Source: the human T2T-CHM13v2.0 reference genome, Homo sapiens. Taken from it: a stretch of 64,000 nucleotides of DNA. Below, one piece after another: positions 20,280 through 25,661 of this stretch. The notes under the pieces are model-generated. The model had not been told where the DNA came from. It did not search any database and was given only the letters and a program-made list of their open reading frames with translations. A program made the position numbers and the translations under genes. Every line of letters starts with the position of its first letter. Within the stretch, counting starts at the first letter, position 1. The DNA lies in NCBI RefSeq assembly GCF_009914755.1, contig NC_060931.1, one strand, 5' to 3'.

Positions 20280-23200
20280 AATTTTATTTTCTTGCTTTAT
20301 TTATTTATTTATTTATTTTGAGACAGAGAGTTTTGCTCTTGTCGCCCAGGCTGTGCAGTTCAGGTGATTCTCCTGCCTCAGCCTCCTGAGTAGCCAGGAC
20401 TACAGGCATGTGCCACCGTGCCCGGCTAATTTTGTATTTCTAGTAGAGGTGGGGTTTCACCATGTTGGCCAGGCTGGTCTCGAACTTCTGACCTCAGGTG
20501 ATCCACCCACCTTGGCCTCCCAAAGTGCTGGGATTACAGATGTGAGCCACCACACCCGGCCATAAACACAAATTTTAGTCTTTGAGACTGTATTTGCCCA
20601 CGTTTGTGGTGTTTTAATGCATTGTTACAGATTAAATGTAAGTTTGTTAACTGGATCAGGTTTGAGGGAGGAGCAAGGTCGGTTTTGTTAGTGCAGTTTC
20701 ATTTAATAATCAGAGGAAACGCAATTCAGATGTTCTGGAGTGAGATACTTAAGTATTTAATTTCCCTTTTTGAGAGAGGCAGCTGTCAATTTTTTCTTCC
20801 TTAATTATAAATTCTAGATTATTTATTTTACCTATCATCTGGCAGGGTTTTTTGTTGTTGTTGTTGTTGTTCTTTTGGTTTTTTTTTTTGTTTTTTTTTT
20901 TGGCAGAGTCTGTCACCCAGGCTGGAGTGCAGTGGAGCAATCTTGGCTCACTGCAACCTCTGTCTCCTGGGTTCAAGCGATTCTCGTGCCTCAGCCTCCC
21001 AAGTAGATGGGATTACAGGTGTATCCACACCCAGCTAATTTTTGTATTTTTAGTAGGGACACGGTTACACCATGTTGGCCAGGCTGGTCTTGAATTCCTT
21101 ACCTCAGGTGACCCACCCGCCTAGGCCTCCCAAAGTGCTGGGATTACAAGTGTGAGCCACAGCTCTCAGCCATCTGGCAGTTTTTAATTTCAGGCATACT
21201 GATGTGTAGGCTCTGGAATCAGACCACAAGGGTTCAGATCTTGATTTGGCTATTTATTAGTTATGAACTTTGGACAAGTTTAACCTCTCTACCTCATTGT
21301 AAAATGGGGATAATAAATGCACCTATACCATAGGCTTATTGTGGAGATTAAGCATTGTAAGCACTCAGAATTTGCTATCATTATTATTATAACCACTAGT
21401 TGGGGAAGTTTGAGTATCAGATAAGTGCTTCTAGAGCACTATCTGGTAGTAATGCTAGCTCAGTTGTAGAAATGCATATTCATTTTGTTATCACATTTAT
21501 ATTTTATAGTTTTTTAGAATCTAAAATTCTGTCATTTTGATTATTTGGAATAATCTGTTAATGTAATTGTAAGATCATCAGCCTAATCAACTTCCATTTA
21601 TAGTTGAAAGTCAGAGCAGTGAAATGACTTGCCCAAGCATTCGTAGGTAGTAACTTGGAATGGATCTGATTGACTAGTATTCTTTTCATTTTACCTTAGT
21701 CAGCTGCTGTAAATTAAATGTTAAATGACTAATAAGGGCTGTTTAATTTCCAGTCTCAGTTACATGTCTCCTCAAAATTTCTTTCAAGTTTCTTTAATTA
21801 TTTCCATTAGTAATTAAGCCAAAAATTTACCTAGTCTCTTAGTGATACACATCCAAAATATATACATTAATTTAAAATATTTATTGAGCACTGTGCCAGG
21901 TGCTTATAAAGGACAGAAATATAATAAATGGCTCTTTCCTCAAAGAGATTGTTATATTGGGCTCTTTTATTTGTAATTTTAGAAAAATATTTTTCCTCAT
22001 ATTTTTTATTCTTTCTGCCTTTTGGGTATCATATTAATCTTTAAAGTGTTACTTTTTGTTTTCTTTTTTTTGTTGTTTTTTTTAAGACAGGGTCTCCCTC
22101 TGTCAGCCAGGCTGGAGTGCAGTTGTGCAATCGTGGCTCACTGCAGCCTTGACCTCTTGGGCTCAAACAATCCTCCCATCTCAGCCTCCCAAGTAACTGG
22201 GACTACAGGTGTGCATCACCACATCCAGCTAGTTTTTGTATTTTTTGTAGGGATAATGTCTCACTATGTTGCCCAGGCTGTTCCTGAACTCCTGGGCTCA
22301 AGTAGTCTGCCTGCCTCAGCTGCTCAAAGTGCTGGGATTACAGGTGTGAGCCACTGTGCCCAGCTGTTTTCTGTTTATTTTAACACGGTCTTAAAGGCAG
22401 CTTCAGTCTTCCAGTTTTTCTGATAAACTGTTTTCTACTTTAATTGCTTTTTTTGCCTTTTACTTCATTTTTCCTACTTGAGAGTCTTGTTTGTTTTTAT
22501 TGTTTTTGTTTTGGTATTGTTGCCTTTGCTAAATCTGTTTTTAATATTGTATTAAAATTTATTTTTCAGTTATTTTTAAACATTTTTAAATATTAAATTT
22601 AATATTGTATCCCAGTGTTTCTTTTTCCAGTTTGATTTAGTATTTAGCTTTGATTGTTGCCTTTACTTGTGTTTACATTCATTTGTGTAAAAAGGGAAGA
22701 GTAAATTTATCCTTTTAAGAATTGGCTGCTTTGTGTGAGTCACTTTGGTTTTAGGTACCATGTCAGTTAGAAGTAATTATAATTTTATGCCATTTAAAAA
22801 TAGCTCAAAACTCCTATGTTCACTTGGTTTCTAGGTCTATTCTGGATAAGCAGGTTTTGTGAAGACATTTATTCTTTCTTGGACCTCAGATTTACCAGAC
22901 ATCTCATGGTATTTCCTTTTCTATTATTTCTTTAATGGCTGCCATTTATTCTCAATGTATTTTGTACATATTTTACTTGTCAGCTGGATGACCAGTTTTT
23001 TGATTCACACATAAGATGTGAAACATTGTGTTAATTGTTAAGGTTGTGTTAAAAACCTTTTCCCTTTATTTATAACTTTTTTTTTTTTTTGAGACGGAGT
23101 CTCGCTCTGTCACCAGGCTGGAGTGCAGTGGCGCGATCGCAGCTCACTGCAGCCTCTGACTCCCTAGTTCAAGCGATTCTCCTGCCTCAGCGTCCTGAGT

Positions 23201-23369
23201 AGCTGGGATTACAGGCACATGCCACCAAGCCCAGGTAATTTTTGTATTTTTAATAGAGACAGAGTTTCACCATGTTGGCCAGGATGGTCTCAATCTCCTA
23301 ACCTCATGATCCACCCGCCTCGGCCTCCCAAAGTGCTGGGATTACAGGCTTGAGCCACCATGCCCGGCC
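20280..23369 (-). mobile_element. Antisense Alus flanking exon 2 (20280-20561, 20848-21171, 22052-22365, 23077-23369); MIR at ~21200-21390
   Basis: Alu and MIR consensus motifs. Confidence 0.9.
22835..22908 (+). other. KMT2E: KMT2E exon 2, non-coding 5' UTR exon (74 nt)
   Basis: Acceptor ttggtttctag at 22834 and donor CATG|gtattt at 22909. Unique sequence. The 74-nt length plus 114 nt of exon 3 UTR matches my recollection of the c.-188..-115 exon. Confidence 0.8.
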
Positions 23370-24384
23370 AGTTTTTGACTGTTTTTTAAACTCACTGTGT
23401 TAAAGGTCACATCTTTTCTGCTTGCTACATTGGCTTTCCCTTTTTAAAAAAACTATGATTTGACCCTAACGAATTCATCATTTTATTAAATATCAACAAC
23501 ATTTTTAAGCGATGCGAATTTTCTCATTATAAGATTTTTTATATTAATGCAAATAGTGAAATACTTGCCTTAATGTCTTAATACATATGACCTCTTGTCT
23601 TCTGACCTCTTGTGAGTAAATTACTGAGATCTGCTTTTCCTGTTGAATCAAATTCAGAGTCTGCAGTTCTGTTTCAGATGTGATGATGTATCTTTGTCCT
23701 GAGGATAAGCTTCTGTGTTTTTAGGGAAAGGCAGTTATGGGGATGTCATGTAGTCGTTTTTAATGACACTTGATTATACAGGGTGATAGTTCATTTAGTT
23801 AATTAAGCCAGAGCTGCAGTTTCATCTCAAGTTCTCTAATGCATTCACCAATTCTTTGTAGAATGCTGTTATGTCCCAGGCACTGTGCAGTTTGGAAGAC
23901 AAGCAGCAATAGCACAAATAGAAGTCATTGTCTGAAGGAAGTTTGTGGCAAGCTCTTTACTGAAACATCTCAAGTGTGGTGTGTACTGAGGATGGCATAT
24001 TTATATAAAAAGGGACATACTAGTAAATAAATACCTAAGTAGATTATTTTAGATTGGAAATATCACTCAGTACTTAAAAGACTTTAATAATGACTTGATT
24101 TCCTTTCAATGTTTGCCTCTGGTAAATAAGTATACCACTAAATATAGTATATACCTAAAATACAAGACTTTTGTGAGTCTAACATAAAAAACAGTGTTTC
24201 TTCAAGTAGCAATTCTTATATCTGCCTGTAATATTTAGTTACATTTGAAAATATCTATTTAGGTTAATTCCTGTTTCACAGATTATACAGATTGTGAGTT
24301 CATACATTATGGGGGAAGATTACCAAAGCGGGTTAATAACATGTTAATAGTGGTTTGAATTCTCCAAGAAAACTAGCCTTGAAC

Positions 24385-25069
24385 TTTTAAACTATGTGTA
24401 ACTGGGAGAGAGCTACCAGATTACTAATTATTATAAGATAAAAATATACAGTAATAGACAATTGCACACTGCTTTTCAATATTTCAGGTATTACATTACA
24501 GAGACAAGGATAATGACTGTTGCTGTTTTCTAATTTATAGGATTATCTATATTGGTTTTGTTCCTGAGTTGCACCTGTATAATTTTTGAAAAGACTTTGA
24601 GTAGATATTTTATAAACATACCTGTAGCCACTGTTATGTAGTGAATTTAAATTAGAAAAATTGATGTTGAAGCTAAGTATCTTTTAGTTGCTATTGTAAA
24701 TTTGTTTAAAAAAAAACTTCATTAGTTTTTTCTACTAATTGAGTTAGGGAATATTAACTCTTTAATAACTGAACAATATTAATGGAAGAAAAAGAGAACT
24801 CCTTCAACAGTATACCTAGATTTACCTGTTATAGAAAATGACAACTACTGTACAGTAATCAAATTTTTACAAATAACATAGTTTCCCTTACATACAGATG
24901 CAAACAGTAGAGTAGAATTGGTTCAGATCCTGGTTTCATCTCTTAAGTGGAGTAGCCTTGATTAAGTTATTTTTAAACCATGTGTTGCTGGAGGAGAGCT
25001 ACCAGATTACTAATTATTATAATATGAAAATATACAATAATAGACAATTACACAGTGCTTTTCGGTATT
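24385..25069 (+). repeat. Dispersed direct repeat of ~100 bp (24385-24483 and 24971-25069)
   Basis: Identical 29-mer gagagctaccagattactaattattataa at 24408 and 24994, with similar flanks; the second copy splits a MIR (~24900-25200). Confidence 0.9.
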
Positions 25070-25547
25070 AGCCTGTTTTGGTTTTCTTTTCCTCAGTGGT
25101 AAAATGGAGATACCTACCTTAGAATTAGGAGGATTAAATAGACCATCCATGTAAAAAGCTGATTATGGTGCTTAGTCCATAGTAAGTACTCAGTATTTGG
25201 TAGTATATTGTTAGATCACTCACTGAACAAAGAAGACTTATTTTTGCATACTGGCACTTTAAGAAATTACATTTTATCTTTTAAAATGAATAATTTTTGG
25301 TTCTTCACTAAATATGCCGTAGTAATCTTCTTGTGGCATTCTAAATTCATTCCCTCAGAAAGATTGTGATTTAGAAACTTTTCTTTTGATCATGATCACA
25401 TAACTCAATTCCAGAAAAATTAATGAGAGAGACTCTAAGCAAATTTCAATTTATATTGAGATTTTAATAAAGAATGTTTTCTTCATGTTATTTTACTTAC
25501 TGTTATAGTGTGACTGTTGCTTTTTTGTCTCCTTTTCTTTTAAACAG

Positions 25548-25661
25548 GGTTTGTGGATGCACTTAGATGTTTGCAATGAGCACTGTGGCTGGCATGCCCC
25601 AGTGTTTTGGATACCAATGCATAGGACTCCATAGTAATCGAATTTACCAGAGGCGAACGTC
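25548..25661 (+). other. KMT2E: KMT2E exon 3, 5' UTR portion (114 nt)
   Basis: Strong pyrimidine tract and acceptor tctccttttcttttaaacag ending at 25547; continuous with the ATG at 25662. Confidence 0.92.

What the first reader, a model, noticed from the sequence alone, without database searches (positions are those of the whole stretch)
22835..25637. uORF created by the exon 2-exon 3 junction, in frame with KMT2E and closed by a double stop
Seen: exon 2 ends in ATG (22906-22908), and splicing supplies the +4 G. The resulting frame is MGLWMHLDVCNEHCGWHAPVFWIPMHRTP (29 aa) followed by TAG TAA (25632-25637), 24 nt before and in frame with the main ATG. This frame is also stop-free through all of exon 2, so it could begin further upstream. 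Inference: exon 2 inclusion or skipping switches a uAUG on or off and tunes translation of a dosage-sensitive gene. The His/Cys/Trp-rich peptide may itself be constrained.
Basis: partly seen in the sequence, partly recalled or inferred. Interest (0 to 1): 0.7.

Follow-up and report, generated by a model that had tools for sequence, protein, structure and literature searches.

The report
Catalogued upstream ORF in KMT2E leader
The short reading frame that starts on the exon 2-exon 3 junction of the KMT2E messenger is real, but it is already in the public list of ribosome-occupied upstream ORFs, and it is one of six upstream start codons, so exon 2 is not an on/off switch for it.

Summary
Exon 2 ends in ATG (22906-22908). 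Spliced to exon 3, it opens a 29-codon frame closed by TAG TAA (25632-25637), 24 nt before the main ATG (25662) and in frame with it.

It is not new. The same peptide at the same coordinates is GENCODE Ribo-seq ORF c7riboseqorf106, and it belongs to the subset replicated in at least two studies. KMT2E uORFs are also listed as antisense-oligonucleotide targets. Mouse Kmt2e shows two translated uORFs.

- Exon 3 alone carries five more uATGs.
- One of them (25557) lies in the same frame four codons downstream and uses the same stops.
- Three lie in the +1 frame and end in a TGA that overlaps the main ATG (c7riboseqorf107).
- Skipping exon 2 therefore cannot remove the uORF.

Shuffles show nothing beyond chance in ORF length, tandem stop or ATG count.

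My best reading is an ordinary, cis-acting, leaky-scanning cluster of uORFs. Low interest; already known.

The parts
22835..22908 (+). KMT2E non-coding exon 2 (74 nt). It is open in the frame of its terminal ATG. Its donor ATG|GTATTT matches the recalled consensus at 5 of 9 positions.
   Evidence: exon bounds from the hub's annotation
22906..22908 (+). Junction uATG, the 5'-most start of the frame-0 uORF in the selected transcript. Context: C at -3, G at +4 (the G is the first base of exon 3).
   Evidence: start of c7riboseqorf106, hg38 105038197-105038199, offset 105015291
25548..25634 (+). The 28 exon-3 codons of the frame-0 uORF plus the first stop, TAG.
   Evidence: hg38 105040839-105040925
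25635..25637 (+). Second in-frame stop, TAA.
   Evidence: chance of a tandem stop 0.058
25557..25559 (+). uATG inside exon 3, in the same frame as the junction ATG. It gives a 25-aa version of the same uORF without exon 2. Context: T at -3, C at +4.
25567..25665 (+). +1-frame upstream overlapping ORF (32 codons). It has internal ATGs at 25576 (G at -3, A at +4) and 25594 (G at -3, C at +4). Its TGA stop (25663-25665) overlaps the main ATG as ATGA. This is GENCODE c7riboseqorf107.
   Evidence: (hg38 105040858-105040956, same offset)
25617..25634 (+). 5-codon mini-uORF (MHRTP), the tail of the frame-0 uORF. It was called separately in a published table with 141 P-sites, 72% in frame, and labelled 'vertebrata'.
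   Evidence: (supplementary file 5 of PMC10032668)
25638..25661 (+). 24-nt spacer between the tandem stop and the main ATG.
25662..25664 (+). Main KMT2E start codon (G at -3, A at +4).
   Evidence: hub annotation
23094..23234 (+). Alternative exon made from an antisense Alu (141 nt). If it sits between exons 2 and 3, the junction ATG opens a different 22-codon uORF ending at TGA 23157, and the exon adds another uATG at 23219.
   Evidence: SRP/Alu matches on the - strand

Best explanation
The feature is the 5'-most start of an already catalogued, ribosome-occupied uORF (GENCODE c7riboseqorf106) in the KMT2E leader.

The part of the leader visible here holds six uATGs in two overlapping reading frames:
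- Frame 0 (ATGs at 22906, 25557, 25617) stops at TAG TAA, 24 nt before the main ATG.
- Frame +1 (ATGs at 25567, 25576, 25594) stops at a TGA that overlaps the main ATG (ATGA).

None of the six, nor the main ATG, has both a purine at -3 and a G at +4. I infer that the cluster works in cis as a leaky-scanning sieve. Ribosomes that start at any uATG are mostly lost to the main ORF, because reinitiation needs more than 24 nt of spacer, or a backward step at ATGA. KMT2E is then made mainly by ribosomes that leak past all six.

Exon 2 adds one more start of moderate context, four codons upstream of exon 3's own in-frame ATG. It can shift the share of ribosomes between the two frames but cannot switch the uORF on or off. 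The peptide is most likely a by-product.

Shown: the anatomy, the identity with the catalogue entry, and replicated footprints (from print). Inferred: leaky scanning, net repression, and an unimportant peptide.
For: - Anatomy and contexts of all uATGs.
- Identity with c7riboseqorf106 and c7riboseqorf107 by peptide and by a constant hg38-to-window offset of 105015291.
- Both IDs are of the 'riboseqorf' form. There are 3,085 such IDs against 4,179 'norep' IDs in the table. These equal the published numbers of ORFs found in at least two studies and in a single study.
- PhyloCSF is -3.24/-3.77 for frame 0 and -3.51/+2.35 for frame +1. Both overlapping ORFs are labelled 'conserved' under a BLASTp-based definition.
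- Mouse Kmt2e has two translated uORFs by harringtonine and cycloheximide profiling, the second overlapping the start codon. One AUG initiation peak is tabulated in its 5'UTR, and CDS ribosome density rises with tunicamycin (log2 0.49, FDR 0.001).
- MLL5 is among the transcripts whose translation efficiency falls on DHX36/DHX9 depletion, in a study of uORF-linked leader structure.
- The exon-3 leader has no unusual RNA fold (z = -0.77, 47 of 200 shuffles fold as well).
- Rfam finds no family in 22500-26000 apart from Alu-derived matches (5 matches, all within 23089-23370).
Against: - No reporter or mutational test of any KMT2E uATG turned up in four literature searches, so repression is inferred from general rules.
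- The frame-0 peptide has one mass-spectrometry study recorded and a 'conserved' label. Its His/Cys/Trp content is nominally high (P = 0.028). A peptide function is therefore not excluded.
- PhyloCSF scores near zero may simply reflect too few substitutions to decide.
- Which AUG ribosomes actually use in human cells is not known to me.
- Exon 1 is outside the window and may hold further uORFs that change the picture.
- The mouse paper describes CDS translation as unaffected, or relatively increased, under eIF2 phosphorylation. That could reflect regulated reinitiation rather than plain leaky scanning.
Confidence: 0.7

Rival explanations
1. One reading: inclusion or skipping of exon 2 switches the uAUG, and hence the uORF, on or off and so tunes KMT2E dosage.
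For: - The junction ATG exists only when exon 2 is spliced in, and it is the first ATG of exons 2-3.
- It has a G at +4, while the next in-frame ATG (25557) has neither a purine at -3 nor a G at +4. Exon 2 could therefore raise frame-0 initiation.
- The exon 2 donor is weak, 5 of 9 matches to the recalled consensus, as expected for an alternative exon.
- With the Alu exon in between, the same ATG opens a different uORF, so splicing does remodel the set of uORFs.
Against: - The same frame and stops are reached from 25557 and 25617 within exon 3, and three +1 uATGs persist without exon 2. No on/off behaviour is possible.
- No exon-2-skipped transcript could be verified from the window or the hub table. 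That RefSeq variant 1 lacks the exon is only my recollection.
- No paper on it was found.
Confidence: 0.1
2. The frame-0 uORF encodes a functional, conserved micropeptide rich in His, Cys and Trp, for example a metal-binding or nascent-chain stalling peptide.
For: - It is labelled 'conserved' across non-primate mammals. About 4-5% of uORFs earn this label.
- One mass-spectrometry study is recorded.
- H+C+W make up 9 of 28 codons against 4.9 expected (P = 0.028).
- The MHRTP tail carries 141 P-sites and a 'vertebrata' label. That could mark a pause.
Against: - PhyloCSF is negative in primates and in mammals.
- The overlapping +1 ORF is equally 'conserved', and it has the only positive score (+2.35). 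The label therefore follows nucleotide conservation.
- The composition follows from TG richness, 13 TG among 83 dinucleotides.
- The P value is uncorrected.
Confidence: 0.07
3. An ATF4/GCN4-type delayed-reinitiation switch: a permissive first uORF, then an inhibitory uORF overlapping the CDS, giving induction under eIF2-alpha phosphorylation.
For: - The mouse paper singles out Kmt2e as the only other transcript with a second translated uORF overlapping the start codon.
- Ribosome density on Kmt2e rises with tunicamycin.
- The human +1 ORF overlaps the main ATG.
Against: - In the human exons seen here the two ORFs overlap each other. A ribosome that finishes frame 0 (stop at 25632-25637) is already past all +1 ATGs (25567-25594). 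The sequential order the model needs is therefore absent, unless the permissive uORF lies in exon 1, which I could not see.
- The mouse authors report unaffected CDS translation rather than strong induction.
Confidence: 0.1

Closest known systems
GENCODE Phase I Ribo-seq ORF c7riboseqorf106 (KMT2E uORF)
   Same: Identical peptide, two-part structure (3 nt + 87 nt), strand and coordinates after a constant offset. It is in the replicated subset.
   Different: Nothing; it is the same object. The catalogue gives no function and does not establish which in-frame AUG is used.
GENCODE c7riboseqorf107 (KMT2E upstream overlapping ORF)
   Same: Same leader and same exon 3.
   Different: It is in the +1 frame, lies wholly in exon 3, and ends in a TGA overlapping the main ATG. 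Its PhyloCSF in mammals is +2.35 rather than -3.77.
Mouse Kmt2e uORF1/uORF2 (Paolini et al. 2018, PMC5892948)
   Same: Two translated uORFs in the orthologous leader, the second overlapping the start codon.
   Different: The correspondence of mouse uORF1 to the human junction-started ORF is not shown. I saw only text, legends and a table of initiation-peak coordinates, no mouse sequence.
ATF4-type two-uORF leader
   Same: A uORF followed by a CDS-overlapping uORF, and relative resistance to eIF2 phosphorylation in mouse.
   Different: Here the two ORFs overlap each other, so the sequential reinitiation order is missing in exons 2-3.

Membership tests
Translated upstream ORF (GENCODE Ribo-seq ORF, class uORF) | AUG start in the 5' leader and an in-frame stop upstream of the annotated start codon | tested here: met
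   ATG at 22906, TAG at 25632, main ATG at 25662.
Translated upstream ORF (GENCODE Ribo-seq ORF, class uORF) | Ribosome footprints calling the ORF in independent data sets | tested here: met
   Checked by look-up, not by reanalysis of reads. The ID class numbers 3,085, the published count of ORFs found in at least two studies.
Conserved-peptide uORF / functional micropeptide | Codon-level purifying selection in the uORF frame (positive PhyloCSF or similar) | tested here: not met
   Published scores are -3.24 (primates) and -3.77 (mammals). They are near zero, so the test is weak. I had no alignment of my own.
Conserved-peptide uORF / functional micropeptide | Peptide-sequence-dependent effect (stalling or action in trans) | not testable with these tools
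   Needs frame-preserving missense and synonymous-recoding reporters.
Splicing-dependent uORF switch | The uORF is present only in the exon-including isoform | tested here: not met
   ATG 25557 in exon 3 gives the same frame and stops, and four further uATGs lie in exon 3.
Splicing-dependent uORF switch | The exon is alternatively included in vivo | not testable with these tools
   No transcript or junction data are on hand. The only indirect hint is the weak donor, 5 of 9.
ATF4/GCN4-type delayed reinitiation leader | A permissive upstream uORF ends before the start of the inhibitory, CDS-overlapping uORF | tested here: not met
   the frame-0 stop (25632) lies downstream of all +1 ATGs (25567, 25576, 25594). 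Exon 1 was not seen.
ATF4/GCN4-type delayed reinitiation leader | Main-ORF translation preferentially maintained or induced when eIF2-alpha is phosphorylated | tested here: inconclusive
   Mouse only: log2 0.49, FDR 0.001 for ribosome density, while the text says CDS translation was unaffected.

The most novel reading that the evidence does not exclude
Exon 2 acts as a positive element rather than a repressive one. Its junction AUG is first in line and has a G at +4. It would load ribosomes into frame 0 and carry them past the three +1 AUGs of the more harmful start-codon-overlapping ORF. They would then be released 24 nt before the main AUG, where some reinitiate. Including exon 2 would then raise KMT2E output by shielding against the overlapping ORF. 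Blocking the junction AUG with an antisense oligonucleotide would lower the protein rather than raise it.
Probability: 0.12. Interest if true: 0.4.

Novelty: already known. Interest (0 to 1): 0.15.

Why it matters
KMT2E haploinsufficiency causes O'Donnell-Luria-Rodan syndrome (table text). Its uORFs have been put forward as targets for steric-blocking oligonucleotides meant to raise protein from the healthy allele.

For that purpose, and for reading 5'UTR variants, two points matter:
- The leader holds six uATGs in two overlapping frames, not one.
- The in-frame uORF is guarded by two stops, so loss of one stop would not extend the protein.

No functional dissection turned up in the library searched. 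The object itself, however, is catalogued and ordinary.

Tried and rejected
- RNA structure as the reason for leader conservation. The fold of 25548-25700 gave z = -0.77, so I rejected it as a signal.
- Rfam scan of 22500-26000. There were 5 matches at E <= 1, all inside the Alu at 23089-23370 and none at exons 2 or 3.
- G-quadruplex motif in exons 2 and 3: none. The DHX36/DHX9 dependence of MLL5 therefore cannot be placed in these exons.
- Repeat origin of exons 2 and 3. blastn of each exon with 100-nt flanks against the window found only self-matches, a poly-A run and short chance hits. This is a limited test, with no repeat library.
- ATG enrichment: not beyond dinucleotide shuffles.
- ATF4-type order of uORFs: not met.

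Literature routes that gave nothing on the uORF:
- PMC10506109: one supplementary file held, 0 hits.
- PMC11473369: 11 of its 14 supplementary files searched and file 13. Only gene-level KMT2E rows came up. File 7 is unreadable and file 14 was not searched.
- The 2025 preprint on a CRISPR screen of uORFs: 0 mentions in the main text.
- PMC9931756 and PMC6940974: KMT2E is mentioned for other reasons.
- The DOI of the published GENCODE catalogue paper is not held. I used passages of its preprint instead.
They may hold peptide-level evidence for this ORF.
- Earlier findings of this scan were not open.

No vertebrate genomes or transcripts are reachable with these tools. I therefore could not test:
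- conservation of the junction ATG;
- exon 2 usage;
- exon 1 content;
- the SETD5 comparison.
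Full report
**1. The observation**

I read 22750-23300 and 25450-25800 and rebuilt the exon 2 + exon 3 leader by coordinates in a script.
- Exon 2 (22835-22908, 74 nt) is flanked by AG and GT, and its last three bases are ATG (22906-22908).
- Exon 3 starts at 25548 after CAG, and its first base G gives the +4 G.
- It ends at TAG (25632-25634) followed directly by TAA (25635-25637). After 24 nt comes the main ATG (25662) in the same frame.
- The frame is open through all of exon 2 (24 codons) with no other ATG. 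Four in-frame near-cognate codons lie there.
- Exon 1 is outside the window, so an earlier start could not be examined.

**2.

The same script lists every ATG of exons 2-3. Besides the junction ATG, the exon-3 leader has five more.
- 25557 lies in the same frame, four codons downstream, and gives a 25-aa version with the same stops.
- 25617 lies in the same frame and gives a 5-codon tail.
- 25567, 25576 and 25594 lie in the +1 frame and give 32, 29 and 23 codons. All three end at TGA 25663-25665, which overlaps the main ATG as ATGA.

By the -3 purine / +4 G rule (recalled general knowledge), no site has both features:

| ATG | -3 | +4 |
|---|---|---|
| 22906 | C | G |
| 25557 | T | C |
| 25567 | T | T |
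| 25576 | G | A |
| 25594 | G | C |
| 25617 | C | C |
| 25662 (main) | G | A |

**3. Chance**

I ran 5000 dinucleotide-preserving shuffles.
- A frame fixed at the first base of exon 3 stays open for at least 28 codons in 21% of shuffles.
- A tandem stop occurs in 5.8%.
- The exon-3 leader's 5 ATGs compare with a mean of 4.03 (sd 1.33), P(>=5) = 0.36. With mononucleotide shuffles the mean is 2.16 and P = 0.056.
- Being in frame with the CDS has a prior of one in three.
- His+Cys+Trp make up 9 of 28 codons against 4.92 (sd 1.78), P = 0.028. This is uncorrected, and it tracks the TG richness of the stretch (13 TG among 83 dinucleotides).

Nothing in the sequence alone exceeds chance convincingly.

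**4. It is already catalogued**

*The catalogue rows.* In Table S1 of Sandmann et al. 2023 (PMC10032668; I saw supplement rows, part 1 of file 2, section 27 and text passages) there is a row c7riboseqorf106.
- It carries the identical 29-aa peptide, gene KMT2E and biotype uORF.
- Its exonic parts are hg38 chr7:105038197-105038199 and 105040839-105040925.
- Both parts map to the window with the same offset (105015291), onto 22906-22908 and 25548-25634.

The next row, c7riboseqorf107, is the +1 overlapping ORF (105040858-105040956, which is 25567-25665).

*Replication.* The table is the GENCODE Phase I set of 7,264 ORFs. IDs containing 'riboseqorf' number 3,085 and 'norep' IDs number 4,179. These equal the numbers that the catalogue's preprint gives for ORFs found in at least two of seven Ribo-seq studies and in one study only (passages seen). 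Both KMT2E ORFs therefore belong to the replicated set.

*Other entries.*
- A separate sheet lists the 5-codon tail in ENST00000257745 with 141 P-sites, 72% in frame, labelled 'vertebrata'.
- A start codon that forms the last three bases of an exon is not unusual in that table. 1 of the 45 rows I happened to read (c1norep156) has the same build.

*Other papers.*
- A review of antisense therapy for KMT2 disorders lists a KMT2E uORF on the MANE transcript as a target, citing Ribo-uORF and Mittal et al. (passages and table text).
- In mouse erythroblasts, harringtonine and cycloheximide profiling showed two translated uORFs in the Kmt2e leader, the second overlapping the start codon (section 17 and legends read).
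- The supplement of that mouse paper tabulates three 5'UTR initiation peaks, one of them an AUG. Ribosome density rose with tunicamycin (log2 0.49, FDR 0.001).
- MLL5 is also named among transcripts whose translation efficiency falls when DHX36/DHX9 are depleted (one passage).

**5. Conservation and the peptide**

Both overlapping ORFs are labelled 'conserved'. By the paper's definition that means significant BLASTp similarity of the translated aligned regions across non-primate mammals. Only about 4-5% of uORFs earn this label.

PhyloCSF scores:

| ORF | Primates | Mammals |
|---|---|---|
| +1 frame (c7riboseqorf107) | -3.51 | +2.35 |

For comparison, among the 45 rows:
- all 44 primate scores are at or below -19;
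- all 41 mammal scores are at or below -160.

My inference is that exon 3's leader is very well conserved as nucleotide sequence, with too few substitutions to favour either frame. If anything, the +1 frame scores better. One mass-spectrometry study is recorded for the frame-0 peptide, but I could not see which.

Conservation of the junction ATG itself, which is the only part contributed by exon 2, is not addressed by any source I saw. I had no other vertebrate sequence to test it.

**6. Surroundings**

- The alternative exon 23094-23234 lies in an antisense Alu. Two SRP-RNA-like matches fall on the minus strand. The exon has a T-run acceptor and a donor matching 8 of 9 positions.
- If that exon is included after exon 2, the junction ATG opens a different 22-codon ORF ending at 23157, and the Alu adds another uATG at 23219. 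Splicing does remodel the set of uORFs, but in the ordinary way.
- The alternative exon start at 25584 is not preceded by AG. It therefore looks like a transcript start. A transcript starting there would lack the uATGs at 22906, 25557, 25567 and 25576.
- The exon 2 donor matches the recalled consensus at 5 of 9 positions, against 6 of 9 for exon 3.
- The leader shows no fold signal, no G-quadruplex motif and no repeat copies in the window.
- The frame-0 stop lies 98 nt before the exon 3/4 junction. By general rules, that distance would allow nonsense-mediated decay if ribosomes terminate there without reinitiating (inference).

**7. Mechanism**

I commit to a cis-acting, leaky-scanning uORF cluster.
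- Ribosomes that start in frame 0 end 24 nt before the main AUG, a spacer too short for efficient reinitiation (general knowledge).
- Ribosomes that start in frame +1 end one base past the A of the main AUG and mostly miss it.
- KMT2E is made chiefly by ribosomes that leak past all six moderate or weak uAUGs.

This fits the relative resistance to eIF2 phosphorylation seen in mouse.

Exon 2 contributes the first uAUG in line, and so probably shifts ribosomes from frame +1 to frame 0. It cannot switch the uORF on or off, because 25557 and 25617 feed the same frame.

The ATF4 order of uORFs is not met in exons 2-3, because the two ORFs overlap each other.

Rival readings and my confidence in each:
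- Exon-2 switch: 0.1.
- Functional peptide: 0.07.
- ATF4-like, with a permissive uORF in the unseen exon 1: 0.1.

**8. Novelty and verdict**

The object is already known and catalogued. No dedicated functional study appeared in four searches:
- KMT2E + uORF: 6 papers.
- MLL5 + upstream open reading: 7 papers.
- KMT2E + uAUG: 0 papers.
- KMT2E + upstream open reading: 6 papers.

The remaining open question is which uAUG matters and in which direction. It has practical value for oligonucleotide design, but it would not surprise a specialist.

Noticed in passing
window 25567-25665 (+): A +1-frame ORF with three ATGs, whose TGA stop overlaps the main KMT2E ATG as ATGA. It is catalogued as c7riboseqorf107. 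It is probably the more repressive element of the leader, and it is the only one of the two ORFs with a positive PhyloCSF score in mammals (+2.35).
   Followed up: partly
window 23063-23378, exon 23094-23234 (+): The alternative 5'UTR exon is an exonised antisense Alu. It has a T-run acceptor (GAG|A), a donor CAG|GTAATT matching 8 of 9 positions, and two SRP-like Rfam matches on the minus strand. It also gives weak, below-threshold matches to the Alu-derived families mir-3135 and mir-1268.
   Followed up: partly
window 25584 (+): The alternative exon-3 start annotated at 25584 is preceded by AC, not AG. It is therefore likely a transcript start. Such a transcript would lack four of the six uATGs.
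   Followed up: no
window 25617-25634 (+): The last five codons of the frame-0 uORF were called as a separate mini-ORF in a published set, with 141 P-sites, 72% in frame. This could reflect initiation at 25617 or ribosomes pausing at the tandem stop.
   Followed up: no
window 25759-25778 (+): A run of about 20 A lies in intron 3, just downstream of the exon 3 donor. It matches many poly-A/T tracts in the window. It is probably trivial.
   Followed up: no
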